Shown here piece by piece: positions 23,232 to 55,066 of a stretch of 64,000 nucleotides of DNA (the first letter of the stretch is position 1; each line of letters opens with the position of its first letter). This DNA is from Nanobdellota archaeon (GTDB lineage Archaea; Nanobdellota; Nanobdellia; Woesearchaeales; DATGWN01): NCBI GenBank assembly GCA_051819685.1, contig JBNJGI010000001.1:18-64017 (forward strand). Reading direction: 5' to 3'. A program made the position numbers and the translations under genes. The notes under the pieces were generated by a model, which saw nothing but the letters and a program-made list of their open reading frames with translations, was not told the DNA's origin and ran no database searches.

Positions 23232-23915
23232 TTATTTTTTCCTTAAAAATTTCCTGAGTTCATTATTAATTTTATTGAAATCAGGAAACAATTTTTCTTC
23301 CTTCTTGAATTCTGATGTATGATGCATCCTCTTTCCAGTATCAGATGAACGGAACTTATGCTTCTTATGAAGCATCTCATGATAGACAACATACTTTAAA
23401 TATTTTTTTTCGTTTTCCTGCAAATCCTTAAATACTCTGCTTATAGTAATCTTATCCTTAGTGTAACTATAATGCCCTAAAGTCCTTTTAGAATATTTGC
23501 CCCAATCTATAGATGAGACTTCAATTTCTCCAGAAAAATAAATATTATTTATATCTTCAAAAATTTTCAAAAGATAGGGGTCAGAATACTTCTTTTCCGG
23601 ATATTTACCCAAATTAGCTATAAAATGATCATAAATATCCATATTAATAGTTCTATTCCTATTGATTCTGAAAATCTTTTTCATAAGAGATTGTAAAAGC
23701 CCTATAACAATATCTTTAGAAACATCTTTCCACTTATAGCTCAAATTAAAATTATATTCTTTATTCTTGTATTTAACATTAGCATTAAAATCACTAAAAC
23801 GCCTTGAATAAGACAAACTCATATCGAAATTATCGAAATTAACATCAGGTTCAAGCATTTCATAAGCATTTCTTAATAATTCGTTCTCCATTTTATTTTT
23901 TAGAATTAAGGTCAT
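23232..23915 (-). CDS. DUF45/YgjP-like zinc metallohydrolase (HExxH)
   Basis: YVVYHEMLHKKH. Confidence 0.55.
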   Translation of the reverse strand: MTLILKNKMENELLRNAYEMLEPDVNFDNFDMSLSYSRRFSDFNANVKYKNKEYNFNLSYKWKDVSKDIVIGLLQSLMKKIFRINRNRTINMDIYDHFIANLGKYPEKKYSDPYLLKIFEDINNIYFSGEIEVSSIDWGKYSKRTLGHYSYTKDKITISRVFKDLQENEKKYLKYVVYHEMLHKKHKFRSSDTGKRMHHTSEFKKEEKLFPDFNKINNELRKFLRKK

Positions 23916-25677: not shown

Positions 25678-25681
25678 TTGC

Positions 25682-26653
25682 TCAGTGTTTTATTGTATCG
25701 ATAACCAATGACATCTTCTTAAAATCACCTTTATTATCATTACCGGTATAAAGGTAAGGAAGTGTTTCAGTAAACCTTTTCTTCATCTCATCGATACTTT
25801 TACTTATATCTTTTGAAGAAAATATAGTAAAAATATTATCTTCAATATGTCCTATAAAATTATTTTCATCTTTAATACAATCCATTATCATCTTTCCGAT
25901 CAATTGAATTGTCTCATAACTTTTCTTATGACCAAAAAACTTAACATAATCATCAAAATGATTCACCTTGACCTTAATTTCATACCATGAATTCTTTTTA
26001 TCCCATATATTCTTATTCTCTTCTGCAATTATCTTTGATGGAATCCCTGTAATTGGATTCACGGAATAAAGGCCTTCTTTTACTTTAAGTCTGCTTTGTA
26101 TTCTGGCTTCAAGCTCAAGAGGGTCAAAAGGCTTAGTAATGTAATCATCTGCTCCCATATCCATTAGATTAACCTTATCTTTGATTTCACCTTTTGCAGA
26201 AAGGATAATTACAGGTATATTTTTAGTTAATACATTTCTTTTCACTTCTTTACATAAATCTTCTCCACTTTTTTTTGGCATCATAAGATCAAGAACAATT
26301 ATATCTGGAATTATTTTATTGATCATCTCGGATGCTTTTTCTCCATCATAAGCTTCATAAATATCATATCTGCCTTCAGAAAGACTTAACCTTATAAGAT
26401 CCACAATATTCTTCTCATCATCAGCTACAAGCACTCTGAATTTCTTTGAAAATTCAGCCAATTTCCAATACATAGCTGAAGCTATCTTCGTTGAAGTGAC
26501 TAACTTTTCTGCTTTAAGGATCTGAAGATATTTTCCGATAGTAATACGATTATGATTTATTCTATTTGCTATTTCAGAAGCTGAAGCTCCAGCAGGATTT
26601 TCTCTCAAAAAAGATATAATTTTACTTTTTATTTCAAAATCACTTGAATTCAT
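25682..26653 (-). CDS. Response regulator: N-terminal winged HTH + REC + degenerate GGDEF-like domain
   Basis: REC: VLVADDEKNIV...IIVLDLMMPKKSG...ILSAKG; C-terminus NPITGIPSK...VNHFDDYVKFFGHKKSYETIQLIGKMI...NNFIGHIEDNIF resembles GGDEF with motif degenerated. Confidence 0.6.
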   Translation of the reverse strand: MNSSDFEIKSKIISFLRENPAGASASEIANRINHNRITIGKYLQILKAEKLVTSTKIASAMYWKLAEFSKKFRVLVADDEKNIVDLIRLSLSEGRYDIYEAYDGEKASEMINKIIPDIIVLDLMMPKKSGEDLCKEVKRNVLTKNIPVIILSAKGEIKDKVNLMDMGADDYITKPFDPLELEARIQSRLKVKEGLYSVNPITGIPSKIIAEENKNIWDKKNSWYEIKVKVNHFDDYVKFFGHKKSYETIQLIGKMIMDCIKDENNFIGHIEDNIFTIFSSKDISKSIDEMKKRFTETLPYLYTGNDNKGDFKKMSLVIDTIKH

Positions 26654-32039: not shown

Positions 32040-32531
32040 TTAACTACTGGTTCTTTCACCTTCCAGTCTATTACCATCACCATCGAATGTGTATTGTGCA
32101 TTATTATCCACATTAGTATATTCAACATCCAATGTATAAGAGTACCTTTCACCTGGGTTAGCTACATCAAGTGTTTGATTTGTAAAAACAAACTCTCCAA
32201 TATCACCTTGTGCAAGTGTTGGATTATATGAAGCATTTGTAACAGTTGTTCCTTCTGCATTACTTAAGGACACACTTGTAATCTTTATTGTATTAGGCAT
32301 ATTATTTGTTAGCTTTAAGCTTACATTTGTCGCATTTGCAGGTACTGTCATACTAGCTACACCTATTTTAGCTGTTTTCCAATAAGTTGATCGTGAACCA
32401 GCTTTTGCGCCTCCACCAATACTTGGAATTCCTCCTAGAACAGCAACAACAATTAAAGCTATCACTATTACAACAGCCAGAATAATTAGATATTCAGTTG
32501 CTGTTTGACTTTTTCTTTTTTTCATAAACAT
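32040..32531 (-). CDS. Archaeal type IV pilin-like protein (class III signal peptide), many N-glycosylation sequons
   Basis: MFMKKRKSQTATEYLIILAVVIVIALIVVAVLGG. Confidence 0.7.
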   Translation of the reverse strand: MFMKKRKSQTATEYLIILAVVIVIALIVVAVLGGIPSIGGGAKAGSRSTYWKTAKIGVASMTVPANATNVSLKLTNNMPNTIKITSVSLSNAEGTTVTNASYNPTLAQGDIGEFVFTNQTLDVANPGERYSYTLDVEYTNVDNNAQYTFDGDGNRLEGERTSS

Positions 32532-37604: not shown

Positions 37605-37664
37605 TTTATATAAAATAATTTAAAACTGACTTATAAATATTTTGAACATTTGAAACATAAAAAT

Positions 37665-37790
37665 AAATAAGGAAGGATATTACTTTGAAATAAATTTTGG
37701 GTTTGCGATAAAAAATGGAACTAGTTACAATAGTGCAAATTCAATCAAGTTCACCCGGAGGAACTAGCATTTGTTCGCAACATCACTCAT
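37665..37790 (+). repeat. Repeat element A copy
   Basis: ...agtgcaaattcaatcaagttcacccggaggaactagcatttgttcgcaacatcactca. Confidence 0.6.
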
Positions 37791-37795
37791 TTTTA

Positions 37796-37885
37796 TAGAT
37801 GTGCTTAAATTTCGTAATAGTTAAACCATTATTGTTTAATTATCCTGCGCCATATAAAATATACTTTATTTATGTTGTCTACTAT
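37796..37885 (+). promoter_or_regulatory. Repeat module C (palindrome gttaaacc-N-gtttaat + ccatataaaat TATA-like) upstream of tRNA-Leu
   Basis: Near-identical to 27121..27211. Confidence 0.6.
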
Positions 37886-37927
37886 TTTATGGATAATTTT
37901 TTAAAGGTAAGTTTTTTCAGAAAGTTT

Positions 37928-38057
37928 GATTTGCGGGGGTAGCAAAGTCTGGTCAAATGCGCAGGACTCAAGTAATTGAGTGATGAGCCGGAAGGCGATG
38001 ATTTTGCATTTGAGCAATCCTGTCTCTTAGTGAGTTCAAGGGTTCGAATCCCTTCCC
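37928..38057 (+). tRNA. tRNA-Leu (anticodon CAA), type II long variable arm, 44-nt intron in anticodon loop (about 37968..38011)
   Basis: Acceptor gcggggg/cccccgc, U8, D-arm, anticodon stem cagga/tcctg with loop c-t-CAA-g, T-arm aaggg-ttcgaat-ccctt, discriminator a; no encoded CCA. Confidence 0.8.
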
Positions 38058-38262
38058 CCGCATTTTATTCTAAAATGCTTTGTCAGGTATTCGAACGTCT
38101 TCAGAATCAAAGATTCTTCGAGTTACTCGTAAACTCGTAACAATCCCTTCCCCCGCATGAACGAAGTGAAGAGGTGGAAGGTCAGGGAAAATACTTTTTC
38201 CCGCTACCTTCCCCCGCATTTTATTCTAAAATGCTTTGTCAGGTATTCGAACGTCTTCAGAA
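38046..38262 (+). repeat. Tandem duplication (unit about 156 bp) of the tRNA-Leu 3' end and downstream 45 bp; a third partial tRNA-3' copy lies at 38137..38152
   Basis: ccttcccccgcattttattctaaaatgctttgtcaggtattcgaacgtcttcagaatcaaa occurs at 38046..38106 and 38202..38262. Confidence 0.75.
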
Positions 38263-38274
38263 TCAAAATAACTT

Positions 38275-38982
38275 CTATTTCTCAATTTCAAGTATTGCAT
38301 TAATCTCTTTATCTACAATAGCACACCCGTTAAGCTTCAAAGCCCATAAAATACCTTCAAGTATACCTTTATCGAAATCTTTCCTTTTTTGGAAATTAGA
38401 TAATTTATAGAAATCAAGAAGACCTTTTTCATATGCAATAGTTGCAAGCTCGCATGATCTTATCGCTCTGATAAAACCAACCTTTTTCTTTAAATTTTCA
38501 ATCATTTCAGTTTTTACATCTATCTTAGTATGAAGTTTTCTCTCAAGTCTTTTCTTTATCTTCAAAGGTGCTTCAATAAGATATCTAGTATTCCTTTCAT
38601 CAATAACAAGAGTCTTAATATCATATTTAATACAAGTAGCAATAGCTTCTGCTTCAGCGTAATGTACTATCTTTACAGCATTCCCTTTATTGAAAAAACA
38701 CTTATTAGCAATATCCAGTATTTCATTTGCTTTTTTAGAAATATCTTCATCATCTTTTTCGTCCACTATCTTTAAAATACCATTAGCAATATAAGGCATT
38801 ATCCTTATACTTTCAAACTTATATTTCTTAGTTTTCATAGGACGATCTATTATCTCTTTACTTACACTTTTAGGTATAATGAATTCACCATTGAAATTTT
38901 TCTTCAATGCTTCTAGAAGCCATTGGGAACCGCTCATAGTAAGACTTATAATAGGACCAGAATCAAAAACAATACCTCTCAT
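38275..38982 (-). CDS. PIN-like nuclease domain protein (putative toxin-like)
   Basis: N-terminal IVFDSGPIISL, acidic residues in HYAEAEAIA / LVIDERN. Confidence 0.4.
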   Translation of the reverse strand: MRGIVFDSGPIISLTMSGSQWLLEALKKNFNGEFIIPKSVSKEIIDRPMKTKKYKFESIRIMPYIANGILKIVDEKDDEDISKKANEILDIANKCFFNKGNAVKIVHYAEAEAIATCIKYDIKTLVIDERNTRYLIEAPLKIKKRLERKLHTKIDVKTEMIENLKKKVGFIRAIRSCELATIAYEKGLLDFYKLSNFQKRKDFDKGILEGILWALKLNGCAIVDKEINAILEIEK

Positions 38983-40997: not shown

Positions 40998-41429
40998 TCA
41001 TTCTTTTTTAAGCATAATTTTAGGCCCGTCCATTGTATAATTCTTATCGTTCTTTAAATTCTTATAATTGAACTTAACTACAGCAGAAGGAGAATCCACA
41101 CTTATATCCAGTTTATAAGTTTCTCCCGGAGTCAAATATTTATTCAATGAAAAAGTATTTTCATCAATTTCTATGGATGTAATATTTATGTTATAAGGAA
41201 GATTATTCTGTATAATCGCTTCAAGTTTTTCTCCATCCCATTTAATTTCCTTAAGTGCTATATCAGAAGATGCCCAGATACTCCTTGATTGTGATATTTT
41301 TTTATCATCAGCAAGACTTGTAAGATTGACAATTGTACCTGTAAGAATTAAAAGAAAAGCTATGACTACTGATATAATAATTATAAACTCCACAGTTGTT
41401 TGCGTTTTTTTTCTAAAAAACATCTTCAA
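40998..41429 (-). CDS. Pilin-like protein (class III signal peptide)
   Basis: MKMFFRKKTQTTVEFIIIISVVIAFLLIL. Confidence 0.65.
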   Translation of the reverse strand: MKMFFRKKTQTTVEFIIIISVVIAFLLILTGTIVNLTSLADDKKISQSRSIWASSDIALKEIKWDGEKLEAIIQNNLPYNINITSIEIDENTFSLNKYLTPGETYKLDISVDSPSAVVKFNYKNLKNDKNYTMDGPKIMLKKE

Positions 41430-43957: not shown

Positions 43958-44098
43958 AATAAAGTATATTTTATATGGCGCAGAATAATTAAACACTTAT
44001 GGTTTAACTATTACGAAATTTGATAGAATTAGTCTAGCCAAATTTCTGTTTTTTCTGCAAGGCAATATAAAAATATAACAATCTTATGTCGCCTACTA
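43958..44098 (-). repeat. Contiguous composite BC element (reverse orientation); C part carries the palindrome and TATA-like box facing the CNNM gene
   Basis: Reverse complement reads tagtaggcgacataagattgttatatttttatattgccttgcagaaaaaacagaaatttggctagactaattctatcaaatttcgtaatagttaaaccataagtgtttaattattctgcgccatataaaatatactt. Confidence 0.7.
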
Positions 44099-44114
44099 TT
44101 TTAGAACATATAAC

Positions 44115-44243
44115 AAAATGAGTGATGATATTGCCTTGAAGTAAAGTTTGAATTTGCGGCAATAAGTGAAACTACTTACAGGAGCGCAAATTCAATCTTA
44201 TTCGTCCGGAGACACGAAAGATTATTCGCAATATCACTCGCTT
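44115..44243 (+). repeat. Repeat element A copy
   Basis: aaaatgagtgatgatattgccttgaag...cttacaggagcgcaaattcaatc...ttattcgcaatatcactcgcttttt. Confidence 0.7.
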
Positions 44244-44374
44244 TTTGTAAGTATACCAGAAACTGGTAAAATATATATTCAATTTGAATTAACTTATAAA
44301 AAACTACGCAATTTCATTAAACAATAATAACAAATATTTATAAATGAATCTGTTCCTTTAAAAACAGGGGTTTA

Positions 44375-47300
44375 ATGGTAGATAAAAAAGAAGGTGAAAA
44401 GCAGTCTTTTGAGGAACTAAATGAAAAATTTAATAATCTCAAAAAATTAGCTTCAGAATTCGGTGTAGGAACAGATAAAAGCGATAAAGAAAAAAATGAT
44501 AATATAGTAAATCTTTCTGTAGATAATTCTAAACCCTATGAAAAAGAAAACGATCTCAAGTTAGTCGAAAATACAGCTGAATCTTATAATGAAGTTGAAG
44601 TATATGATAGTATTTCAGAAAACAAGGATAAATTTACGCTTAACAAAGAAAATTTATCTGACGATTCCATCAACAAATTCAATGATGGGATAATAAAGAT
44701 TAAAGATGAGATAAAAAAATCTCTTGGTGGATCAATATCGCCTGATATTAAAGAAGATACACCGGAAACTAACACTAATGAAGAAGAATCTTTTGAAAAC
44801 AAACAATCTCAAAAAGAAATAATAGAAAAAGAACCAGTTGAGCAGAATAATTCAGATAAAGCTGAAGAAATCCAAGAAGAAAAAAAGATAGAAGAAGAAA
44901 ACAATAAACTTCAGGAAAAAATAAATAAAAAACAACATCTTAAGAACAAATACATCCAGTTAGAGGAAGATATCAAAGATGCGAAAAACATCCATAAATT
45001 AAGAAAAGAAATAGAAAAAAAGAATAAAAAAATAGATGAGAAACTTTATTATCTCGAATCTAAAGAAAGTGAATTAGCTGAAAAATCTACACAAATCTAT
45101 GAAAAAGAGAAAGAACTTGAAGAAACAAGAAAAAAATTATTCATGAAAGAGCAGGAAGTAGGTGAACTTATAGAAAAAAATGTAGAAAAAGTCAAGGAGT
45201 TCGATGATAAATCTACTGAAATCAGTGATAAATCAAAAGATATAGCTCAAAGGGAAAATGAATTATTGGTGCAAGAAAAAAAGCTAATGAAATTACAATC
45301 AGAACTTAATGAAGAACAGATCAAATTAAAAAATAATTCATTAAAACAAGAAAACAGCTGGAAAAAAGCAAAAAGTAAAATAGATGAGATGGAAAGATAT
45401 GTGACTGATAAAGAAAAAGAGATCAAATCAAGATTAAAACACCTCAATGATAAAGAAAAAAATCTCAAAAAGAAAGAAGAAAAAGTAAACAAAACAGAAA
45501 AAGGTATACATGAACACCTAAACCATATCAGTAAAAGGGAAAAGGAAGTTGATAAGAAAGAAAAAGAACTTCATAAAAAAGAAATAGGAATGAATGACCA
45601 AGAAGAAAAACTATCTCAGAAAAAACTCGAGCTTGAAGAAACATTAAGACATAATAATAACATAAAAAAAGAGCTTGAAGATAAAAGAAAAGAAATTGAT
45701 GAAATTGAAAAAGATAAGCAGAAAGCACTTGAAGAATATAACAATTACCTTAAAGAAAAAGATGCTCTTGAACAAGAAAAAAACAGACTAAAAAAACTTG
45801 AAGAGGATATTCTTGAAAACGAAGAAAATGTAAGAAAAAATGCTAATGTATTGAAAAAACGTGAAAATGAACTGGAAATAAGAGAAAGGAAAGCCGAAGA
45901 TCTGATAGAACATAATAATTCATTAAAACTTAAATTAGAAGAAGAAGAATCTAAGAAAAAAGATGTAAAGAAACTACACAAAGAGTTAAAAGATAAGAAA
46001 ATAGAAATTGAAAAAGAAAAAAATAATTATGAAACATTAAGTGATGAACTCAAACAGAAAATTGAAATAAATAAACAAGAAAAAAATAACCTTGAAAAAG
46101 AAAAGTCAGAAATTAAAAATAATAAAAACAATCTTGAGAAAAAAGAGAAAGATCTTACTAAAAGGGATGCTCAAATACAAGTAAAAGAGAATGATATCAA
46201 ACAAAAAGAGAAAGAAATAAATGTTTATCTAAAACAAAAGAAAGAGTTTGAAAAAGAACTTGAAAATATAGAAACCAAAAAAACTGAATTAAGAGATAAA
46301 GAAGCAGAAATACAAGGAAAAATCGATAAAAATACTGCAATGCTTGATGAAATAGATCAAAAAAGTCAGCAAATTGAAAAAGAAAAGTCAGAAATTTCAG
46401 AAAAAGAAAATGATATTGAAAGTAAAGAAAAAGAATTAAAAACATTATTGGAAGAAGAAAAGAAAAGTAAAACAAGAACCTCTCAAATAGAATCTGAAAA
46501 GAAAAAAGAGCTTAAAGAACTACAATCACTAAAAAAAGATCAAGGAAAAACCAATAAGGAACTTGAAAACAAAATAAATAAGGTTGAAAAAGAAAGAACT
46601 CTTCTTCAAGAAAAACAAGAATCGCTCAAAACAAAGGAATCTGAAATAAAATCCAAACTTGAAGAAATAAAGACCGAAAAGAAAGAAAAAGAAAAACTAC
46701 TTGCTAATCTTGACAAGAAAGAAAAATCTCTTGCTAAAGAAGAAGTCCGTATAGATAAAAAATCAAGTGAACTTGAAGAAAAATCCAAAGAAGATGAAGC
46801 AAGAAAATCTGACATCAAAAATCTTATATCTGAAAAGAAATCTGTTCTGGAAGATCTTGATAAAAAAGAAAAAAACATCTCCAAACTTGAAGAAGAATAC
46901 AATAAAAAACTTTCATCCCTCACAAAAAAAGAAGAATCGCTCAAAACAAAGGAATCTGAAATAAAATCCAAACTTGAAGAAATAAAGACCGAAAAGAAAG
47001 AAAAAGAAAAACTACTTGCTAATCTTGACAAGAAAGAAAAATCTCTTGCTAAAGAAGAAGTCCGTATAGATAAAAAATCAAGTGAACTTGAAGAAAGAAG
47101 TGCTTCAGTCATTGAAGATGAAAAAAATCTTAAAACCAAAAATCAGAATTATCATAAAAAGATGAAAGAACTAGAAAAAAAATCTGAAGAATTGAATATT
47201 CACGAATCTGATCTGAAAGAAAGAGAAATGCAAAATAGGAAACTAATTGATGAAATAAAAGAAGAAAAAACCCAGGTTGAAGGTATCAAACAAAAAATCA

Positions 47301-47935
47301 CTGACATCAATAAAAATATTGAAGATAAAGACATTAATCTAAAAAATAAAGAAAAGGAACTTAATTCACGTGAAGAAAGAGTTAAATCTACTGAAGAAGA
47401 TATCTATAATAGAAAAGATCAAATCGAAAAGAAAGAAAAAGAACTTTTCAACGCTAAAAAACTTGTAGAGGATATGAAGGAACAAATAAAAGAAGAATAT
47501 TTAAAAATAAACCAGACGAAAGATTTGCTTGATGATAAACTAAAAATGACAGAAGAAAAAAGACAGTTATATGAAAAAGAATGGGAAGAATTTCAAGAAA
47601 AATCCAAAGAAACAGAAAACACAAAAACTCAGTTCCTTGAAGCTAAGGAAAAATTGGAAGAGATAAAATCCAGATCAGAAAAAGAATTAGATAATCTTTT
47701 AACGGAAAAGAACAAATATATACGTGAAAACAAAAAAATGCGTCAGATGAATCATGAAATGAAAAAGAAAAAAGAAATCTTGGATGTTTCAAAACATAAG
47801 ATAGCTGGAAAAATAAAAGAACTCACAAAAAAAGAAAAAGCTTTACAATCAAAAGAATCTATATATAATAAAAAAGAAGAATTTTTAAATAGATATGAAA
47901 AGGAATTGGTCGAGAAGGAAAAGAGGTTAATATGA
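44375..47935 (+). CDS. Giant (1186 aa) K/E-rich coiled-coil protein
   Basis: Continuous heptad-like EKEKELKK low complexity; no TM or signal peptide; TATA-like atttataaatg + cagggg upstream. Confidence 0.7.
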   Translation: MVDKKEGEKQSFEELNEKFNNLKKLASEFGVGTDKSDKEKNDNIVNLSVDNSKPYEKENDLKLVENTAESYNEVEVYDSISENKDKFTLNKENLSDDSINKFNDGIIKIKDEIKKSLGGSISPDIKEDTPETNTNEEESFENKQSQKEIIEKEPVEQNNSDKAEEIQEEKKIEEENNKLQEKINKKQHLKNKYIQLEEDIKDAKNIHKLRKEIEKKNKKIDEKLYYLESKESELAEKSTQIYEKEKELEETRKKLFMKEQEVGELIEKNVEKVKEFDDKSTEISDKSKDIAQRENELLVQEKKLMKLQSELNEEQIKLKNNSLKQENSWKKAKSKIDEMERYVTDKEKEIKSRLKHLNDKEKNLKKKEEKVNKTEKGIHEHLNHISKREKEVDKKEKELHKKEIGMNDQEEKLSQKKLELEETLRHNNNIKKELEDKRKEIDEIEKDKQKALEEYNNYLKEKDALEQEKNRLKKLEEDILENEENVRKNANVLKKRENELEIRERKAEDLIEHNNSLKLKLEEEESKKKDVKKLHKELKDKKIEIEKEKNNYETLSDELKQKIEINKQEKNNLEKEKSEIKNNKNNLEKKEKDLTKRDAQIQVKENDIKQKEKEINVYLKQKKEFEKELENIETKKTELRDKEAEIQGKIDKNTAMLDEIDQKSQQIEKEKSEISEKENDIESKEKELKTLLEEEKKSKTRTSQIESEKKKELKELQSLKKDQGKTNKELENKINKVEKERTLLQEKQESLKTKESEIKSKLEEIKTEKKEKEKLLANLDKKEKSLAKEEVRIDKKSSELEEKSKEDEARKSDIKNLISEKKSVLEDLDKKEKNISKLEEEYNKKLSSLTKKEESLKTKESEIKSKLEEIKTEKKEKEKLLANLDKKEKSLAKEEVRIDKKSSELEERSASVIEDEKNLKTKNQNYHKKMKELEKKSEELNIHESDLKEREMQNRKLIDEIKEEKTQVEGIKQKITDINKNIEDKDINLKNKEKELNSREERVKSTEEDIYNRKDQIEKKEKELFNAKKLVEDMKEQIKEEYLKINQTKDLLDDKLKMTEEKRQLYEKEWEEFQEKSKETENTKTQFLEAKEKLEEIKSRSEKELDNLLTEKNKYIRENKKMRQMNHEMKKKKEILDVSKHKIAGKIKELTKKEKALQSKESIYNKKEEFLNRYEKELVEKEKRLI

Positions 47936-49404
47936 TGCAGGGATCAGATAATAATTCAAGCAGTTATGGTAGTTTATTGAAAAATCTAAGTAATCGACTA
48001 AATGAGGTTAAGACTGAAAAAGATAACGAGTATATAACAAAAAAAAACAATGAACTAAAAGAACTTTTAGATTCTTACAGCAAAAAAAATTCATATGAAC
48101 AATCTTCTAAAAAAACATACCAGCATGATTCTGTAACAGAAGCTACTAATTTTGCTAAAAAAGACGATTATCTAAAAGAAAAAGAAGCTCGTCTGAATAA
48201 AGAGCAAGAAGAAATTGAACATGAAAAGTTTATTTTAGATTCAAAACAAAGAGTAATGAATAAAGAACTAGATTCTTTAAATAATCCTGAAGTTGTAAAA
48301 GTGCTTGAAGAGATTGAGAGAAGATCTTCCTTACTTTCTCAAAATAAAAAATATTATGAAGATAGGGAAAAAGAGATATCAAGAAGAGAAGATAAAATAA
48401 GGGAAAGAGAAAATCAGGTACAATTATCACATCAAAAATTATTAGATGAAAAGAAAAAATTATCTCATGATATATTCGATCTTAAATCATCCCGTGATAA
48501 TATTAAATTTGAAATCGACTCATTGCAACAGGAAAAATCCACTCTTGATTCTGTAGTTAAAGAAAGAACTCAATTAATAGAAGATCTCAACAAACAATAT
48601 CAGGAATCAAAGATTGAACTTAAAAAAATACAAGACAGCATATTATCTGAAAGAAAAGCTTTCGCAAGATTAAAAGAAGATACAGATGAAGAAAAGAGGA
48701 ATCTGGAAAGTGAAAAAAAATCTTTTGAAGAATATAAAAATGCTTTTTACGAAAAAGTCAACAGGTTATCTGAAGAATCAAAGAAAGAACTAAGTGATTA
48801 CAAGAAAAATGTGCTTTCTGAAATAGAAGAAAAGTCGGAAAAGATAAATAAAAAATATAAAGAGATTCAGGAAAAAGAAAAGAAGGTCAATAATAAAGAA
48901 CAAGAACTGAAAGATTTTGAAGAAAAGTTATATAGAAAGCTAGAAGAATCAGATAAAAAAGAAAAATCAATTGAAGAAGAAAAAAAGAAAATAGATGAAT
49001 TAAAAAATGATTATGAAAAAAAGAACGAAGAAATAAATAATTATGAAGATGAATTAAAAAAGATTGAAAATACAGTTATGGACCTTAAAAATGTTGTCGA
49101 TCGTAAAGAAAAAGATATAAAAGAAAAACAGAAAATACTCGATGAGAACATAAATTATTTCGAGAAACTGCAACATAATAACAGATATGAAAAAAAATTG
49201 AAAGAAGTAATATCCGGTATAGAGTCTAAAATTAAAGAAAAAAATATAATAGGGGCGCAAAAGCTATATGCTCAAGCCAATATGATATATAAAAATTCAC
49301 CGGAAAACGTAAAAAAATTTTACAAAAGTAAACTTGCTTCAATTAAACAAAGGATAACTATAATGTCAAAAAGAAATTCAGGAGGTGTTTCACATGGTGA
49401 ATAA
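47932..49404 (+). CDS. Coiled-coil protein (490 aa), 4-bp overlap with previous
   Basis: ATGA overlap; K/E-rich heptads. Confidence 0.65.
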   Translation: MMQGSDNNSSSYGSLLKNLSNRLNEVKTEKDNEYITKKNNELKELLDSYSKKNSYEQSSKKTYQHDSVTEATNFAKKDDYLKEKEARLNKEQEEIEHEKFILDSKQRVMNKELDSLNNPEVVKVLEEIERRSSLLSQNKKYYEDREKEISRREDKIRERENQVQLSHQKLLDEKKKLSHDIFDLKSSRDNIKFEIDSLQQEKSTLDSVVKERTQLIEDLNKQYQESKIELKKIQDSILSERKAFARLKEDTDEEKRNLESEKKSFEEYKNAFYEKVNRLSEESKKELSDYKKNVLSEIEEKSEKINKKYKEIQEKEKKVNNKEQELKDFEEKLYRKLEESDKKEKSIEEEKKKIDELKNDYEKKNEEINNYEDELKKIENTVMDLKNVVDRKEKDIKEKQKILDENINYFEKLQHNNRYEKKLKEVISGIESKIKEKNIIGAQKLYAQANMIYKNSPENVKKFYKSKLASIKQRITIMSKRNSGGVSHGE

Positions 49405-51490
49405 TTCTGCTGATTATTCTTATGAACTTCCGGATCTTCCTTCAGATCTAAATCCTGAAGAAAATAACGACAAAAAAACAGAAGAGGAACCTGAAAATAA
49501 TAATTCGTCTGATAATCTTGATTTCTCTCCTGAAGATTATAATTTTGATGAAGAAGAAGAACTTATAAGTACATTTGGTAGTGATGATAAAAAGGTAGCT
49601 GAAAAAGGTGCTCTTGACCATGAAATAAACACCTTGAGTTCAAGAAAACAGGAATTAGAAAATAAAGTATCTGAACTTACTGATAAGATATTCAAACTAA
49701 AAAAAGAATATGAAAATAACAAAGGAGTTCTTGATGATGACATAAAGAAAGTAAAAGAACTCATGGATGAATCCTCAAAAGCCAAAGAAGAATATAACCA
49801 AAAAATAAACGACTTATCGAATAATCAGGATAAAGTGGCTTCTGTTCTTGAAGATCTCGAAAAACAAAAAGAAGCCATAAATAAAAAGCTTGAAGAAGCT
49901 GAAGAAAACAGAAAAACATATGAGAATAAGAAAAAAGAGATAGATGATGAAAAAGAAAGTATTAATCATCTCAAAAAATCTTTAGAAGAAAAAGAAAAAA
50001 GGCTTAATGAAAAAGAAAAAGAGATAAATGAGACTGACAACACAACATCATCAAAAAGGTTCGAGATTTCAAAAAAAATACAAGAAATAAAAGATGCCTA
50101 TGAAAAATTAAAAAATAAAGAAAAGGATCTTGAACAACGTGAAAAAAATCTGGCACTTAATGTAAGCAACCTCAAAAAAAATCAAATTGATTTCTCAAGA
50201 CAAAAAGATCAATTCATGAAAAACACCAAAAACATACATGAAAAGCTCAATTACATAAAAACAAAAGAACAAGAAGTTAAAAATATCTTTAATTCAGTAT
50301 CAAGAAAAGAAAAAGACTTGAACCAAAGGGTAAAAAAACTTAAGGAACAAAAGAAAGATCTTGAAAAAAGGGAAAATAAAATATATACAATATCAGGTGA
50401 AATAGAAGGTCATAAAAGGATTCTTAATGATCTGAAAGAAAAAAAGAAAGAAATATCAAAAGAAAATAACTCATTAGAAAAAGAGAATGAAAAATTAAGA
50501 AAAAAGAAAACAGATCTATCCGGTCAGATTATGTCTCTTGAAAATAAATATAATTCATTAAAAAACGATATAAAAGCTTCAAAATTCAGTAATGCTGAAA
50601 CTGAAAAATATCTTGACTCACAAAGAAAAGAACTTGAAAAGTTCAATAAGGAACTATCGCAAAAACAACTTGAATTAAAACAAAAAGAAGTGGATCTAAA
50701 TAAAAATTCAGTATTGGCAGAACAAAAAAGGATAAGAGCTGAAGGTCTTGAGAATCAACTGGAAGAAAGGGAAAAATTTTTAGTCAAACAACAAGAAGAT
50801 ATTAAAAAAGAAGAAGCAAGAATACAATCTTTAGTATCTAAACATACCGGTCTTAAAGAAAAGATAAAAGAACTTGAGATGAGAGAAAGAGATATGAATC
50901 TCAAAATATTAAGCTTCGAAAAAAGAGAAGAAGCTCTTAAGACACTTGAATCAAATCTCAAACAAAGAGAAGAAGAATTGAAGCAAAAAGAAGAAGCAAG
51001 CTCTCCTCTTCAGCTAGAATCTGAAATAACTAAGAAAAAAGAAAAGATATCGTCTCTTGAAAAAGAAAAAGAAGATCTTCAGAATCAATTGAAACAGAAA
51101 GAAGAAGAAATGAATAAAAAACTTCAAGAGAAAGAAAAACAAGTAGAACAAGATGGAGAAGAAACTTCATCTCTTGAAAAAGAAAGGGATGAACTGAAAG
51201 CCAAGAACAAGGAATTGCTTCAGAATAACACTCAATTACAGACAAATATGGATAGTATTAAGACCGAAAGGGATGCATTAAAGACGCAAGTCAAAGATCT
51301 TAACTCTACACTACTTGATGTTGAAAAGAACAAGGTAAAGTTCGTCGATGAAGATCAGGATGTAAAAACAGTTCTTCAAATAACTGATGATCTATTAGAA
51401 AATCTTCCTGAAGATGTATTGAAAGAATTCGTTAAATCAGACAACTATAAGATATTCGAAAAAGTATTCAAAAAATACAACATAGAATGA
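49394..51490 (+). CDS. Coiled-coil protein (about 699 aa), acidic N-terminus, overlaps previous stop; aggaggtg SD
   Basis: ATG 49394 seven nt after aggaggtg; track shows GTG-extended 49385. Confidence 0.65.
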   Translation: MVNNSADYSYELPDLPSDLNPEENNDKKTEEEPENNNSSDNLDFSPEDYNFDEEEELISTFGSDDKKVAEKGALDHEINTLSSRKQELENKVSELTDKIFKLKKEYENNKGVLDDDIKKVKELMDESSKAKEEYNQKINDLSNNQDKVASVLEDLEKQKEAINKKLEEAEENRKTYENKKKEIDDEKESINHLKKSLEEKEKRLNEKEKEINETDNTTSSKRFEISKKIQEIKDAYEKLKNKEKDLEQREKNLALNVSNLKKNQIDFSRQKDQFMKNTKNIHEKLNYIKTKEQEVKNIFNSVSRKEKDLNQRVKKLKEQKKDLEKRENKIYTISGEIEGHKRILNDLKEKKKEISKENNSLEKENEKLRKKKTDLSGQIMSLENKYNSLKNDIKASKFSNAETEKYLDSQRKELEKFNKELSQKQLELKQKEVDLNKNSVLAEQKRIRAEGLENQLEEREKFLVKQQEDIKKEEARIQSLVSKHTGLKEKIKELEMRERDMNLKILSFEKREEALKTLESNLKQREEELKQKEEASSPLQLESEITKKKEKISSLEKEKEDLQNQLKQKEEEMNKKLQEKEKQVEQDGEETSSLEKERDELKAKNKELLQNNTQLQTNMDSIKTERDALKTQVKDLNSTLLDVEKNKVKFVDEDQDVKTVLQITDDLLENLPEDVLKEFVKSDNYKIFEKVFKKYNIE

Positions 51491-51502: not shown

Positions 51503-52630
51503 ATGGCAAGATATACAGATAAAAAAGTTTTGATAAGAGTAGAATTCAATGTACCTCTTGATAAGAAGGGAAAGATAAAAGACAACAGCAGGATAAAAAG
51601 AGCAATACCTACTATCAAAAAAATATTATCTCAAAAACCTCGACAACTAATTATTATGACACATCTGGGGAGACCTAAAAATAAAGAAACACATCTTAAA
51701 ACAGACATTCTTGCAAAAGAATTAGAAACATTATTGAGACGTAAAGTCTATAAAACTGATTATTGCGGTGAAAATCCTTTACCGACTAAAAACATTATTA
51801 TGTTAGAGAACCTCAGATTCTATGAAGGCGAAAAAAAAGGTTCCAGAAAGTTCGCTAAGCAACTGGCTTCATTAGCTGATATATATGTAAATGAAAGTTT
51901 CGGCACCTGCCATAGGAAAGATTCCAGTATGTATTTAGTACCTCAATATTTCCCTGAAAACAGACGTTTTGCAGGAGAACTCCTTAAGAATGAAATAAAG
52001 AAGCTTGATAAAGTGAATAAATCAAAAAATATAACAGTAATGGTAGGATTTGCCAAAATAAGTGATAAAATAAAAATATTAAGCAAGCTTTTAAAAAAAT
52101 CGGACAAAACTCTAATAGGAGGTCTGGTAGTATTCAGTTTTCTCAAAGCAAAAGGATACAAAGTAGGAAAAGTGGAATGTTCTGAAGAAGATGTTCAGTT
52201 GGCAAAAAAATTGCTAAAAAAACATGCTGATAGGATAATATTACCAACAGATTTTACAGGAAAAAAAGGAAAAAGAAAATATGAATGTTCTCATGATAAT
52301 ATACCTGATGATTTCATCGGTTATGATATAGGTGGAAATTCCATAGAACTCTTCAAAAATACATTGAAAAGTTCAAAATTAGTATTCTGGAATGGCCCTT
52401 TAGGATATTTCGAGAAAAAACCCTTCGACCATGCAACAAACAAAATATCAGAATACCTTGCGAAAAATTCACAAAACATAAAGACTGTTATTGGAGGAGG
52501 TGACACTGCTTCAGCTGTCTATGAATCAGGTTTCGCAAATAAGATGTACCATATATCTACAGGAGGAGGAGCATCTCTTGAATATATAGAAAAAGGAACC
52601 TTGCCAGCACTTAAGTGGCTTAAGGTTTAA
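51503..52630 (+). CDS. pgk: Phosphoglycerate kinase
   Basis: KKVLIRVEFNVPLD...RIKRAIPTIK...IIMTHLGRPK; track TTG-extended to 51491. Confidence 0.8.
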   Translation: MARYTDKKVLIRVEFNVPLDKKGKIKDNSRIKRAIPTIKKILSQKPRQLIIMTHLGRPKNKETHLKTDILAKELETLLRRKVYKTDYCGENPLPTKNIIMLENLRFYEGEKKGSRKFAKQLASLADIYVNESFGTCHRKDSSMYLVPQYFPENRRFAGELLKNEIKKLDKVNKSKNITVMVGFAKISDKIKILSKLLKKSDKTLIGGLVVFSFLKAKGYKVGKVECSEEDVQLAKKLLKKHADRIILPTDFTGKKGKRKYECSHDNIPDDFIGYDIGGNSIELFKNTLKSSKLVFWNGPLGYFEKKPFDHATNKISEYLAKNSQNIKTVIGGGDTASAVYESGFANKMYHISTGGGASLEYIEKGTLPALKWLKV

Positions 52631-54142: not shown

Positions 54143-55066
54143 ATGATTTCGACAGATATAATTAGTAACACTACATTAATCATAGGATTTTTAGGACTCT
54201 TTATTGGCACTATTACTGATTTTAAGAAACGTGAAGTGCCTGATTGGCTTAATTTTTTTCTTATATTTTCAGGATTGGGATTAAGTATAATAGGAGCTAT
54301 ATATTATAAAGATATATTCTATATAATAATACCGCTGATATGGCTTTTAGTTGCATATCTTATAAGTGCCATAATGTATTATTCCGGCCAATGGGGTGGC
54401 GGTGATTGCAAAATGATAATGGGTATCGCAACACTATTCGGAATCACCACTTTTGCAATCTCGGATCCAATAAGATATCTTCTGGAAAATTATATAACTC
54501 TTCCTTTCACATATAACATATCCTTTTTTGCAAATTTCATATTCAACAGTTTTGTAATTGGAGCTTTCTATGGAGTTGCATGGATAATATACTATATAAT
54601 AAGCAATTACCGAAAATTCATAGATACTTTGAAGCAAAAACTGAAAACATATAAAAAATTCATATATTTTGTATTGATATTTTTCCTTATAGCTACAATA
54701 TCCATAGCTCTTCTCAATCTATTCAATTGGCATTCATTCTTATTATTATTAATGATACTCCTTTTTCCATTCTTAATTTATTCGGTAAAAAGTGTTGAAG
54801 AATCATGCATGATAAGAGATATGAAAATAAAAGATCTCACAGAAGGAGAATGGATCGCTGAAGATATAGAAATTGACGGAAAAGAAATATGCAAATCAAA
54901 AGAACTTGGTCTCACACCTAAACAATTAAATAAACTGAAAAAACTTGAAAAGAAAGGAAAAATCGAAAAAGTAAAAGTAAAAGTAGGAATACCTTTCGTA
55001 CCGGCTTTCTTCCTCTCATTTATCTTTACTATAATATACGGAAATTTCGTGATATTATTCATATAG
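54143..55066 (+). CDS. A24-family archaeal prepilin/preflagellin peptidase (PibD/FlaK-like)
   Basis: TITDFKKREVPD (first catalytic Asp region) and GQWGGGDCKMIMGIA (GGGD second Asp motif); polytopic; TATA-like atttataaatg upstream. Confidence 0.75.
   Translation: MISTDIISNTTLIIGFLGLFIGTITDFKKREVPDWLNFFLIFSGLGLSIIGAIYYKDIFYIIIPLIWLLVAYLISAIMYYSGQWGGGDCKMIMGIATLFGITTFAISDPIRYLLENYITLPFTYNISFFANFIFNSFVIGAFYGVAWIIYYIISNYRKFIDTLKQKLKTYKKFIYFVLIFFLIATISIALLNLFNWHSFLLLLMILLFPFLIYSVKSVEESCMIRDMKIKDLTEGEWIAEDIEIDGKEICKSKELGLTPKQLNKLKKLEKKGKIEKVKVKVGIPFVPAFFLSFIFTIIYGNFVILFI

What the first reader, a model, noticed from the sequence alone, without database searches (positions are those of the whole stretch)
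44375..51490. Operon of three giant K/E-rich coiled-coil proteins (1186 + 490 + ~699 aa)
Three consecutive, overlapping (translationally coupled) genes encode almost pure heptad-like coiled coil. There is no TM segment, signal peptide or nucleotide-binding motif. The third has an acidic D/E-rich N-terminus and a distinct C-terminal non-coiled segment. Filament-forming coiled-coil proteins of this size are rare in archaea. The proteins could be cytoskeletal, cell-envelope scaffolding or cell-cell contact proteins. The operon sits directly upstream of pgk and downstream of a BC + A repeat cluster.
Basis: partly seen in the sequence, partly recalled or inferred. Interest (0 to 1): 0.65.

Follow-up and report, generated by a model that had tools for sequence, protein, structure and literature searches.

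The report
Coiled-coil partners of a DPANN pilus motor
Three back-to-back genes in a tiny symbiotic archaeon (Nanobdellota) encode very long coiled-coil proteins with no membrane or export signal; in related genomes the same gene set sits directly in front of a type IV pilus motor, so they are most likely an internal scaffold for the pilus machine these cells may use to contact hosts.

Summary
Three overlapping + strand genes encode 1186, 490 and 698 aa proteins with strong heptad periodicity (z = 7.5-12.6). They have no TM segment, no Walker motifs and no cysteine. They are not SMC/Rad50.

All three have full-length orthologues in the same order on another contig (42, 30 and 26% identity). 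In 5 of 5 orthologous loci the third gene lies immediately upstream of a type IV pilus ATPase (T2SSE), two T2SSF platform genes and class-III-signal pilins. This matches the "CCP + CpaF + TadC" loci reported for cluster-2 DPANN by Hamm et al. 2024.

The window lacks the ATPase; pgk follows instead. It does hold a homologous major pilin, a minor-pilin-like gene and a prepilin peptidase within 13 kb.

The non-coiled C-terminus of protein 3 is a 45-aa three-helix module, Pfam PF27359 "TP_0179". In 37 of 38 other loci examined, the gene directly after a module gene encodes a protein whose N-terminus is MGLL(E/D)KA(Q/K) or a variant. That protein is usually the pilus ATPase.

Best reading: a cytoplasmic coiled-coil scaffold tethered to the pilus ATPase. 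It is a new member of a known but uncharacterised kind. The module/N-terminal-motif pairing appears unreported in the searched literature.

The parts
44337..44344 (+). TTTATAAA, a candidate archaeal TATA box about 35 nt upstream of the P1 ATG, followed by a GGGG Shine-Dalgarno-like run
   Evidence: Read directly from the sequence. Promoter function is inferred, not tested.
44375..47935 (+). P1/CC1: 1186-aa giant coiled-coil protein. The acidic, probably disordered N-terminal ~170 aa contain a conserved N-terminal helix. An uninterrupted proline-free helical rod spans aa ~170-1186 (about 150 nm if fully extended).
   Evidence: Orthologue L001:868-4944 (1358 aa, 26% identity, both termini aligned).
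46611..47096 (+). Recent internal duplication in P1: 171 nt at 46611-46781 and 46926-47096, 99% identical, 315 nt (105 aa = 15 heptads) apart; aa 746-803 and 851-908
   Evidence: It suggests the rod length evolves by in-frame duplication (inference).
47932..49404 (+). P2/CC2: 490-aa coiled-coil protein whose start overlaps the P1 stop (ATGA)
   Evidence: Orthologue L001:4941-6446 (501 aa, 30% identity over the full length, E = 1e-52). The equivalent middle gene is also present in L003 and in L005/L006.
49204..49365 (+). P2 C-terminal conserved helical motif, A..(L/I)Y......Y..(L)P...K......L...I (aa ~425-478)
   Evidence: The same motif occurs at the C-terminus of the middle gene in L001, L003 and L005/L006. 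It has no Pfam match.
49394..51490 (+). P3/CC3: 698-aa protein. It has an acidic disordered head (aa 1-66), five long helices (67-207, 224-395, 401-535, 538-586, 593-653) and a C-terminal module.
   Evidence: Orthologues: P0004/L001 (42% identity, 94% coverage), L003, L005/L006, L007 and L041.
50702..50968 (+). Most conserved block of the P3 rod (aa 437-525), including ELEMRERDMNLKILSFEKREEAL. It is a probable partner-binding site.
   Evidence: Nearly invariant between P3 and P0004. Recognisable in L003 (RERKMNLKLLDFEKREEAL) and in P0005. A binding role is inferred.
51347..51487 (+). TP_0179 module (Pfam PF27359): a ~45-aa three-helix C-terminal domain, VDEDQDVKTVLQITDDLLENLPEDVLKEFVKSDNYKIFEKVFKKYNI
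   Evidence: An exhaustive HMMER search found 159 hits, almost all matching only this segment at their extreme C-terminus. Hits carry PF27359 'TP_0179'. AF2 gives three helices with pLDDT 86.9. It is the only copy in the window.
51503..52630 (+). pgk (phosphoglycerate kinase), 12 nt downstream. It is probably co-transcribed and occupies the position that the pilus ATPase holds in relatives.
   Evidence: MGM5483332.1.
32040..32525 (-). Stand-alone major pilin with a class III signal peptide (KRKSQTATEYLIILAVVIVIALIVV), assigned to the same pilus system
   Evidence: 35-44% identical to pilins encoded in the CC3-ATPase loci L003, L005 and L004. Its N-terminus is near-identical to the L041 pilins.
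40998..41423 (-). Minor-pilin-like protein (RKKTQTTVEFIIIISVVIAFLLIL)
   Evidence: resembles the first pilin-like gene after T2SSF in L003 (147 aa) and L005 (140 aa), but with weak identity.
54143..55066 (+). Archaeal prepilin peptidase (Peptidase_A24 plus archaeal C-terminal domain)
   Evidence: Pfam E = 1.2e-10.

Best explanation
P1, P2 and P3 are the cytoplasmic coiled-coil accessory proteins ('CCPs') of a DPANN type IV pilus-like (Tad/CpaF-TadC type) machine. They are made in fixed proportion from one translationally coupled operon. They probably assemble into a long rod or lattice under the membrane; the individual rods would be about 50-150 nm if extended. The TP_0179 module at the C-terminus of P3 is the link to the motor. 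I infer that it docks onto the short conserved N-terminal peptide, M-[G/A]-[L/F]-[L/F]-[D/E/S]-[K/R]-A-[K/Q/R], of the pilus assembly ATPase. That would position, cluster or regulate the ATPase, in the way ArlX or ArlCDE scaffolds surround ArlI in the archaellum. In this genome the operon has been separated from the ATPase/TadC genes, which are not in the window. The pilin, minor pilin and prepilin peptidase remain nearby. Shown: the coiled-coil nature, the absence of export signals, the conservation of the trio, synteny with T2SSE/T2SSF/pilins in relatives, and the module/N-terminal-motif co-occurrence. Inferred: physical binding, scaffold geometry and a role in host contact.
For: (1) Synteny. 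The P3 orthologue is immediately upstream of T2SSE, then T2SSF x2, then class-III-signal pilins, in L001/L002, L003, L005/L006, L007 and L041. That is 5 of 5 independent orthologous loci. CC1 and/or CC2 orthologues lie upstream of it.
(2) The window encodes a pilin 35-44% identical to pilins in those loci, a minor-pilin-like gene and a prepilin peptidase.
(3) The TP_0179 module is tied to T4P ATPases well beyond DPANN. In 26 of 26 loci retrieved with the module alone, the next gene, 0-23 nt downstream, is a T2SSE ATPase (22 loci plus 1 truncated case) or a small wHTH protein of the kind that precedes the ATPase in L004 (3 loci). The same holds in Thermoplasmatota locus L014 and in L008.
(4) In 37 of 38 non-window module loci, the downstream protein starts with MGLL(E/D)KA-type residues. 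This includes non-ATPase partners: giant coiled coils in L010, L012 and L013, and a DUF2226 protein in L011. In the first locus set (L001-L014) plus the window, the strict pattern matched no other ORF among 1701 Met-start candidates of at least 80 aa.
(5) Cytoplasmic location. P1-P3 have no signal peptide or TM segment. In membrane proteins that carry the module (P0046, P0041, the L004 196-aa protein, L020, L039), the K/R-rich flanks place the module on the cytoplasmic side. Its usual partner is a cytoplasmic ATPase.
(6) Literature. CCP + CpaF + TadC loci are conserved in cluster-2 DPANN, and the CCPs are detected by proteomics (PMC11291902). An intracellular coiled-coil protein (arCOG07564) occurs in subclade 4F T4P loci, and that ATPase clade also occurs in nanoarchaea (PMC4858521).
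Against: In the window itself the operon is followed by pgk, and no T2SSE or T2SSF gene and no MGLL-type N-terminus exists in the 64 kb. The link therefore rests on relatives.
Homology to the published Nanohaloarchaeum CCPs (NAR1_03220, NAR1_01690) could not be tested.
The TP_0179 module also occurs without a nearby T2SSE: L009 KaiC-like fusion, L010-L013 and L011. It is therefore a general docking module and not pilus-specific.
Module-peptide binding is inferred from gene order only. No complex prediction or experiment was done.
The 26 metagenome loci come from one sequence pattern and are phylogenetically clustered, so they are not 26 independent observations.
Confidence: 0.55

Rival explanations
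1. A free-standing coiled-coil cytoskeleton (CCRP, crescentin or intermediate-filament-like) that shapes or organises the small cell, chromosome or division site. On this view the adjacency to pilus genes in relatives is only operon mosaicism.
For: In the window the trio is co-transcribed with pgk and sits among housekeeping genes (Cdc6, aIF2-gamma, ribosomal proteins). Thermoplasmatota pair a TP_0179 protein with a 1385-1697 aa giant coiled-coil protein and no adjacent T2SSE. The P1 rod length drifts by duplication, as is typical of structural spacers.
Against: 5 of 5 orthologous loci place CC3 directly before the pilus ATPase with gaps of 2-75 nt. The module's usual partner is a T2SSE ATPase. 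No filament-forming signature could be tested.
Confidence: 0.2
2. Extracellular attachment fibres resembling the reovirus sigma-1 trimeric coiled coil, exported by or displayed with the pilus machinery to bind the host, as raised by Hamm et al. 2024.
For: The locus type is linked to type IV pili in host-dependent DPANN, and CCPs were predicted to resemble sigma-1 (PMC11291902). Long coiled coils are common in adhesins.
Against: P1-P3 have no Sec or class III signal peptide and no TM segment. Foldseek finds only generic coiled-coil matches, with best E = 4e-3 and none at E <= 1e-3, and no receptor-binding head. The TP_0179 module sits on the cytoplasmic side in TM proteins, and its neighbour is a cytoplasmic ATPase.
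Confidence: 0.12
3. Divergent SMC, Rad50 or ASRP-type chromosome proteins.
For: NCBIfam gives weak matches to the SMC, Rad50 and ASRP coiled-coil arms (E down to 3e-17, 17-62 bits). Foldseek lists SMC arm fragments.
Against: The scores are 5-20 times below the family cut-offs and cover the arms only. There is no Walker A or B motif, no ABC signature, no hinge, and no Cys for a zinc hook. phmmer finds no PDB sequence match.
Confidence: 0.02
4. Spurious or decaying low-complexity ORFs in an AT-rich genome.
For: The sequence is extremely A-rich and low-complexity, and long antisense ORFs appear by chance (for example 46606-47139 on the - strand).
Against: Three intact ORFs total 7.1 kb. They have Shine-Dalgarno sequences and overlapping stop/start codons. 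They show significant heptad periodicity. Full-length orthologues lie in conserved order at 26-42% identity.
Confidence: 0.01

Closest known systems
Coiled-coil proteins (CCPs) of the two conserved type-IV-pilus-like loci of cluster-2 DPANN (Hamm et al. 2024, Nat Commun, PMC11291902; e.g. NAR1_03220, NAR1_01690)
   Same: DPANN (Nanobdellota/Woesearchaeota-type) genome. Long predicted coiled coils with no recognisable domains. In relatives they are encoded next to a CpaF-like ATPase and TadC-like platform genes. No function has been shown experimentally.
   Different: Here there are three consecutive CCP genes (about 2370 aa), whereas that paper mentions 'one or two'. In this window they are detached from the ATPase/TadC genes. 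Sequence homology to the Nanohaloarchaeum CCPs could not be tested. That paper suggested sigma-1-like attachment proteins, whereas my evidence favours a cytoplasmic location. The TP_0179 module and the N-terminal partner motif are not mentioned in the sections I read or in any term search of it.
Pfam PF27359 'TP_0179' domain proteins (the family name appears to derive from Treponema pallidum locus tag TP_0179; my reading of the name)
   Same: The last ~45 aa of P3 match this module. Relatives with 40-60% identity in this segment carry the precomputed PF27359 tag. The module lies at the extreme C-terminus, as in about 95% of hits.
   Different: Most family members are 50-570 aa K/E/R-rich or TM-anchored proteins without real heptad periodicity. 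P3 attaches the module to a ~590-aa true coiled coil and is accompanied by two further giant coiled-coil genes.
Archaellum cytoplasmic scaffolds ArlX (FlaX) and ArlC/D/E around the T2SSE-family ATPase ArlI and the KaiC-like ArlH
   Same: Coiled-coil-rich accessory proteins encoded in the same operon as a T2SSE-family ATPase and platform protein, and acting on the cytoplasmic face of the machine. This is a functional analogy from my knowledge of the archaellum literature.
   Different: No sequence relationship: there is no Arch_fla_DE Pfam hit. ArlX has an N-terminal TM anchor, which P1-P3 lack. P1-P3 are several-fold longer.
arCOG07564, the intracellular coiled-coil protein of subclade 4F T4P loci (Makarova et al. 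2016, PMC4858521), compared there to the H. pylori HP0958/CT398 coiled-coil hairpin
   Same: An intracellular coiled-coil protein encoded in archaeal T4P loci, and the ATPase clade is said to occur also in nanoarchaea. P3 gives weak CT398-type signals (Pfam CT398_CC 16.8 bits vs cut-off 27; Foldseek 4ilo_A E = 0.019).
   Different: Membership was not testable, because no arCOG profiles are available here. P1-P3 have no Zn ribbon (no Cys).
SMC / Rad50 / archaea-specific SMC-related protein (ASRP)
   Same: Long antiparallel-capable coiled coils of similar length and K/E-rich composition.
   Different: No ATPase head, hinge or zinc hook. Scores are far below the family cut-offs.

Membership tests
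SMC / Rad50 / ASRP | N- and C-terminal ABC-type ATPase head (Walker A, Walker B, signature motif) | tested here: not met
   No Walker A or B pattern in P1-P3. No SMC_N or AAA Pfam hit. NCBIfam matches cover arm positions only.
SMC / Rad50 / ASRP | Whole-protein score above the curated family cut-off | tested here: not met
   Best scores are 61.6 bits against 567 (SMC_prok_B), 56.8 against 300 (ASRP) and 34.7 against 1000 (Rad50).
SMC / Rad50 / ASRP | Hinge domain or CxxC zinc hook in the middle of the coiled coil | tested here: not met
   P1-P3 contain no cysteine. There is no SMC_hinge Pfam hit.
DPANN T4P-locus coiled-coil proteins (CCPs, PMC11291902) | Encoded in a cluster-2 DPANN genome | tested here: met
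   Flanking proteins match NCBI records exactly, and the records are named 'MAG... [Nanobdellota archaeon]'.
DPANN T4P-locus coiled-coil proteins (CCPs, PMC11291902) | Long predicted coiled coil without other recognisable domains | tested here: met
   Heptad periodicity z = 7.5-12.6. AF2 predicts long helices. No Pfam family reaches its cut-off.
DPANN T4P-locus coiled-coil proteins (CCPs, PMC11291902) | Gene adjacent to the CpaF-like ATPase and TadC-like platform genes | tested here: inconclusive
   Met in all five orthologous loci: L001, L003, L005/6, L007 and L041. Not met in the window, where pgk follows and no T2SSE or T2SSF gene is present. A pilin, a minor pilin and a prepilin peptidase are within 13 kb.
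DPANN T4P-locus coiled-coil proteins (CCPs, PMC11291902) | Sequence homology to the published CCP profiles / NAR1_03220, NAR1_01690 | not testable with these tools
   The sequences and HMMs are not in the held text or supplements.
Pfam PF27359 (TP_0179 domain) | Match to the family model | tested here: inconclusive
   PF27359 is absent from the local Pfam copy, so P3 could not be scored directly. Indirect evidence is strong. A profile built from P3 retrieves proteins tagged PF27359. P3 orthologue P0006 carries the tag, though weakly. P0012 (tagged) is 61% identical to the P3 module. A home-built HMM of the module scores P3 at 72 bits.
Pfam PF27359 (TP_0179 domain) | Position at the extreme C-terminus, and a following gene that starts with the MGLL(E/D)KA motif (a rule derived here, not a curated definition) | tested here: inconclusive
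   C-terminal position is met. The following-gene rule is met in P3 orthologues (MAFFDKAK, MAFYDRKP, MGFMDKAR, MGLLSRTK, MGFLKNAR). It is not met in the window, where pgk starts MARYTDKK.
Archaellum scaffold proteins ArlX / ArlCDE | Arch_fla_DE domain (ArlC/D/E) or N-terminal TM anchor plus coiled coil (ArlX) | tested here: not met
   No such Pfam or NCBIfam hit. No TM segment.
HP0958 / CT398 (FlgZ) coiled-coil hairpin proteins | Coiled-coil hairpin followed by a C-terminal Zn ribbon | tested here: not met
   CT398_CC scores 16.8 bits against a cut-off of 27. No Cys, hence no Zn ribbon. Foldseek 4ilo_A gives E = 0.019 only.
Arcadin-4 (Rkd4) / crenarchaeal cytoskeleton-associated coiled coil | NCBIfam NF053563 score above cut-off | tested here: not met
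   8.7 bits against a cut-off of 860.
Intermediate-filament-like / CCRP cytoskeletal proteins | Self-assembly into nucleotide-independent filaments | not testable with these tools
   Requires purified protein and electron microscopy. Sequence shows only a head-rod(-tail) layout.

The most novel reading that the evidence does not exclude
The TP_0179 module and the N-terminal MGLL(E/D)KA(Q/K) peptide form a previously undescribed, portable docking pair in archaea. The pair is always encoded as neighbouring genes, with the module at the C-terminus of the upstream protein and the peptide at the N-terminus of the downstream one. It is used mainly to tether type IV pilus ATPases. In Woesearchaeota/Nanobdellota-type DPANN, this tether has been expanded into a three-protein coiled-coil scaffold, with individual rods of up to about 150 nm if extended. 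The scaffold would organise the pilus motor, and perhaps the still unidentified host-attachment apparatus, from inside the cell.
Probability: 0.35. Interest if true: 0.75.

Novelty: new member of a known kind. Interest (0 to 1): 0.55.

Why it matters
DPANN archaea depend on physical contact with hosts, and the molecular parts of their contact machinery are largely unknown; cryo-ET shows cones, tubes and appendages of unknown identity (PMC11104419). The coiled-coil genes next to DPANN pilus genes have been noticed but not explained. This analysis gives them a concrete and testable role: an internal scaffold joined to the pilus ATPase through a defined 45-aa module and an 8-aa N-terminal peptide. 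If the module-peptide pairing holds, it offers three things. It is a general rule for finding partners of archaeal type IV pilus ATPases. It is a handle for pull-downs and localisation. It also explains why unrelated proteins in Thermoplasmatota and Altiarchaeales (KaiC-like, DnaA-like AAA+, Zn-ribbon proteins and giant coiled coils) carry the same tail.

Tried and rejected
- Pfam and NCBIfam scans of the full proteins and of the non-coiled termini gave only sub-threshold coiled-coil noise.
- Exact-sequence look-ups of P1-P3 under several start choices were not in the collection. The look-up of pgk for contigs was not on record.
- The word-indexed homology search with full-length P3 found only one orthologue, because K/E-rich words swamp the index. 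The searches with module alignments A2 and A4 found only 8 and 4 hits.
- The first genome contigs and first metagenome-contig scans picked uninformative patterns and found nothing. Alignment A2 was too diverse for pattern design.
- PDB sequence searches with P2, P3 and the module profile found nothing significant.
- Foldseek of the module against PDB gave only villin headpiece at E = 9.7, which is not meaningful. Foldseek of full P3 gave generic coiled coils only.
- tblastn of the L001 pilus ATPase against the window found no homologue.
- I considered whether P2 + P3 (1188 aa) pairing along P1 (1186 aa) is meaningful. I rejected it as coincidence, because the L001 orthologues give 1155 against 1358.
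- I considered pgk adjacency as functional (pgk also lies 5 kb from the module gene in L009). I treat it as coincidence.
- Rfam search of the upstream intergenic element found no match, even at E <= 1.
- Literature searches for PF27359, TP0179 and the N-terminal motif strings returned nothing functional.

Full report
**1. What is in the sequence**

The window comes from a Nanobdellota (DPANN) MAG. Flanking proteins (pgk, Cdc6 and a 1622-aa hypothetical) are exact matches to NCBI records MGM5483332, MGM5483327 and MGM5483284 on a 70,433-bp contig.

Three + strand ORFs lie at the stated coordinates: 44375-47935 (P1, 1186 aa), 47932-49404 (P2, 490 aa) and 49385-51490.
- For the third ORF, the ATG at 49394 follows AGGAGGTG at the right distance. 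I therefore take P3 as 698 aa.
- P1 and P2 overlap in ATGA. P2 and P3 overlap by 11 nt.
- pgk most likely begins at ATG 51503, 12 nt after the P3 stop.
- A TTTATAAA box sits about 35 nt upstream of the P1 start.

The proteins are 35-43% K+E, with almost no Pro or Gly and no Cys.
- Hydrophobic periodicity peaks at 3.5 residues. It exceeds 300 shuffles by z = 12.6 (P1), 7.5 (P2) and 11.9 (P3).
- The highest 19-residue Kyte-Doolittle mean is about 0, so there is no TM helix or signal peptide.
- There is no Walker A or B motif.
- P1 has no proline between aa 155 and 1186.
- P1 carries a 171-nt internal duplication, 99% identical, with a 315-nt (15-heptad) offset.
- AlphaFold2 of P3, using the alignment with its orthologue, gives a disordered acidic head (aa 1-66), five long helices (67-207, 224-395, 401-535, 538-586, 593-653) and a compact C-terminal three-helix unit.

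**2. What it is not**

Pfam finds nothing above threshold. NCBIfam reports SMC, Rad50 and ASRP matches, but only at 17-62 bits against cut-offs of 300-1087. Those matches cover arm positions only. With no head, no hinge and no zinc hook, SMC/Rad50 membership fails. phmmer against all PDB sequences finds nothing for P2 or P3. Foldseek of the P3 model returns only generic coiled-coil hairpins, with best E = 4e-3.

**3. Conservation of the trio**

The word-indexed search with P3 found one orthologue, P0004 (654 aa, 42% identity, 94% coverage). Its contigs (L001, L002) carry the same three genes in the same order: 1358, 501 and 654 aa.
- P2 aligns end to end with the 501-aa protein (30% identity, E = 1e-52).
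- P1 aligns with the 1358-aa protein at 26% identity, with both termini in register.

Further P3 orthologues were found in L003, L005/L006, L007 and L041.
- L006 shows three coiled-coil genes again (at least 307, 676 and 610 aa).
- L003 and L005 retain the middle gene. It has the same C-terminal helical motif as P2.

An exhaustive HMMER search of 1.84 billion representatives found only about six clusters that align beyond the last 45 aa. The P3 family proper is therefore rare. Where a source organism is named, it is a Woesearchaeota MAG (P0006; L041 assembly); L003's record is labelled 'uncultured Methanosarcinales archaeon'.

**4. Context in relatives**

In L001, L003, L005, L007 and L041 the P3 orthologue is followed, after 2-75 nt, by these genes in order:
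- a T2SSE-family ATPase;
- two T2SSF (TadB/TadC-like) genes;
- a minor-pilin-like gene;
- one to three pilins with class III signal peptides.

This architecture matches Hamm et al. 2024 (PMC11291902). They reported conserved loci in cluster-2 DPANN (Nanohaloarchaeota, Woesearchaeota, Pacearchaeota, Nanoarchaeota, Aenigmarchaeota) that encode CpaF, TadC and coiled-coil proteins (CCPs). The CCPs were detected by proteomics. Makarova et al. 2016 (PMC4858521) had earlier noted an intracellular coiled-coil protein in subclade 4F T4P loci, whose ATPase clade also occurs in nanoarchaea.

The window differs from these relatives.
- pgk follows P3, and no T2SSE or T2SSF gene is present in 64 kb.
- It does contain a stand-alone pilin (32040-32525, - strand) that is 35-44% identical to pilins of L003, L005 and L004. 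Its N-terminus nearly matches the L041 pilins.
- It also contains a minor-pilin-like gene (40998-41423, - strand) and an archaeal prepilin peptidase (54143-55066).

The pilus system is evidently dispersed in this genome.

**5. The C-terminal module of P3**

The exhaustive search with P3 aa 430-698 gave 159 hits. Almost all of them match only the last ~45 aa.
- The segment lies at the extreme C-terminus in about 95% of hits. Its consensus is EELDEDVKKVLKILDDLLEKLPEEVIEEFAKSDDFKLYEKVLKKYKI.
- Hits carry the precomputed Pfam tag PF27359, named TP_0179. That family is missing from the local Pfam copy.
- AF2 with 52 sequences predicts three helices at pLDDT 86.9. There is no significant PDB match by sequence or fold.

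The module is attached to varied proteins:
- Thermoplasmatota double KaiC-like ATPases;
- Zn-ribbon/coiled-coil proteins;
- an Altiarchaeales DnaA-type AAA+ protein;
- membrane proteins.

In the membrane proteins the K/R-rich flanks put the module in the cytoplasm.

**6. A gene-order rule**

The ATPases downstream of module genes share an N-terminus:

| Locus | Downstream protein | N-terminus |
|---|---|---|
| L003 | ATPase | MGFMDKAR |
| L005 | ATPase | MGLLSRTK |
| L007 | ATPase | MGFLKNAR |
| L008 | ATPase | MGLLEKAF |
| L014 | ATPase | MGLLEKAQ |
| L001 | ATPase | MAFFDKAK |
| L041 | ATPase | MAFYDRKP |

The same start appears on non-ATPase proteins that follow a module gene:
- the 1385-1697 aa giant coiled-coil proteins of L010, L012 and L013 (MGLRDKAK, MGLRDRAR);
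- the DUF2226 protein of L011 (MGLLDKAK);
- the small wHTH protein of L004 (MGLLEIGE), which itself precedes an ATPase.

In the first locus set (L001-L014) plus the window, a strict pattern matched nothing else among 1701 Met-start ORF candidates of at least 80 aa.

A metagenome scan seeded only with the module then returned 26 new loci.
- In all 26, a gene starting 0-23 nt after the module gene begins MGLLE[KQ]AQ or a near variant.
- 22 of these are T2SSE ATPases, one is truncated at the contig end, and three are the small wHTH protein.
- These loci come from one sequence pattern and are related to each other, so they are not independent events.

The non-ATPase partners argue that the module and the N-terminal peptide travel together as a pair. 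The only exception among the other loci is L009. The window has neither a second module nor any ORF with the partner motif. No paper in the searchable library contains these motif strings.

**7. Most likely mechanism**

P1-P3 are cytoplasmic. Translational coupling fixes their proportions. In relatives they belong to the pilus operon.

I infer that they form an extended coiled-coil scaffold; the individual rods would be about 150, 50 and 87 nm if fully extended. I infer that the P3 TP_0179 module docks on the ATPase N-terminal peptide. By analogy with ArlX and ArlCDE around ArlI (my knowledge of the archaellum literature), this would position, cluster or gate the motor.

In most other archaea the module protein is a 150-570 aa K/E/R-rich or TM-anchored protein without heptad periodicity. 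The three-gene true coiled-coil set is therefore a lineage-specific elaboration.

Shown: composition, periodicity, absence of export signals, orthology, synteny and motif co-occurrence. Inferred: binding, geometry and any role in host contact.

**8. Rivals**

- A pilus-independent cytoskeleton remains possible (0.2). The window operon is detached from the ATPase, and Thermoplasmatota pair the module with giant coiled coils that have no adjacent T2SSE.
- An extracellular sigma-1-like fibre, the idea of Hamm et al., is disfavoured (0.12) by the lack of any export signal and by the cytoplasmic topology of the module.
- SMC/Rad50 and spurious ORFs are effectively excluded.

**9. Novelty and score**

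The trio is a new member of a kind already noticed bioinformatically (DPANN CCP/T4P loci). Its function is still unknown. Within the limits of the literature I could search, three points are new:
- the C-terminus of P3 is identified as the TP_0179 module;
- the evidence favours a cytoplasmic location;
- there is a module/N-terminal-motif neighbour rule.

Interest is 0.55. The finding is not a surprise in kind, but it makes an open question directly testable: what the DPANN coiled-coil proteins do, and how archaeal pilus ATPases are tethered.

Noticed in passing
window 44100-44245 and 37649-37794 (also 44070-44103 and 37856-37889): A ~146-nt element in the 485-nt gap upstream of P1 has a second copy 6.4 kb away (73% identity), and a 34-nt companion piece is also repeated. 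It folds into nested stems (MFE -40.6 kcal/mol, z = -3.9) and ends in a T-run on the + strand. It has no Rfam match even at E <= 1. The two copies show only one-sided (G-U type) changes.
   Followed up: partly
window 37933-38062; 38051-38124 and 38207-38280: Rfam calls a 130-nt tRNA (47 bits), presumably intron-containing, that ARAGORN does not find. A 74-nt direct repeat (92% identical) starts inside its 3' end and recurs 156 nt downstream.
   Followed up: no
loci L010:4741-10290, L012:7001-13149, L013:7001-13193: A Zn-ribbon + coiled-coil + TP_0179 protein (342-459 aa) is followed directly by a 1385-1697 aa E/K/R-rich giant coiled-coil protein that starts MGLRD(K/R)A(K/R). Pairs of KaiC-like ATPase genes lie upstream on the same contigs in L012 and L013. 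No source names the organism for these three loci; related module proteins in the same searches are from Thermoplasmatota MAGs. This looks like a second, pilus-independent use of the module/motif pair.
   Followed up: partly
locus L011:8001-10732 (Altiarchaeales GCA_001742785.1): A bacterial-type DnaA AAA+ domain protein has its C-terminal region occupied by two TP_0179 modules, with no Pfam hit to the DnaA DNA-binding domain. It is followed, with a 1-nt overlap, by a DUF2226 protein that starts MGLLDKAKK.
   Followed up: partly
locus L004:9545-12437; also L020, L035, L039: In some loci the module sits on a small TM-anchored protein. The MGLL N-terminus and a winged-helix domain form a separate small protein, which in L004 is 189 aa with a C-terminal TM segment and lies between the module gene and the ATPase. 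It looks as if the N-terminal region of the long DPANN ATPases had been split off.
   Followed up: partly
window 11102-12310 (+): The S-adenosylmethionine synthetase is of the bacterial/eukaryotic three-domain type (S-AdoMet_synt_N/M/C, E down to 1e-67) and not the archaeal AdoMet_Synthase type seen in L012 and L013. This may be a horizontal acquisition.
   Followed up: no
window 23893-26653 (-): A PAS-HisKA-HATPase histidine kinase lies next to a response regulator that has an N-terminal HTH. This is a two-component system in a reduced DPANN genome.
   Followed up: no
window 15395-22010 (+): A block of seven co-directional ORFs (394, 568, 203, 300, 163, 191 and 251 aa). Five of them were scanned against Pfam and none had a hit; the 163- and 191-aa ORFs were not scanned. 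It is an uncharacterised gene island.
   Followed up: no
window 3467-8335 (+): A 1622-aa hypothetical protein (exact match to MGM5483284.1). I did not analyse it.
   Followed up: no
window 51503-52630; locus L009:1795-3051: pgk lies directly after P3 in the window, and a PGK gene lies about 5 kb upstream of the KaiC-TP_0179 gene in Thermoplasmatota locus L009. I treat this as coincidence.
   Followed up: no
locus L007:2-874 (C-terminus) and L003:9487-9993: A short motif, L(I/L)(D/A)AGW(D/N)..., occurs at the C-terminus of the L007 upstream coiled-coil protein and near the N-terminus of a small protein in the L003 pilus locus. It may be another small docking element in these loci.
   Followed up: no
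window 46606-47139 (-), 45247-45492 (-), 46197-46475 (-): Long antisense ORFs inside P1 (up to 177 aa, S/F/L-rich) are by-products of the purine-rich low-complexity coding strand. They are not genes.
   Followed up: yes
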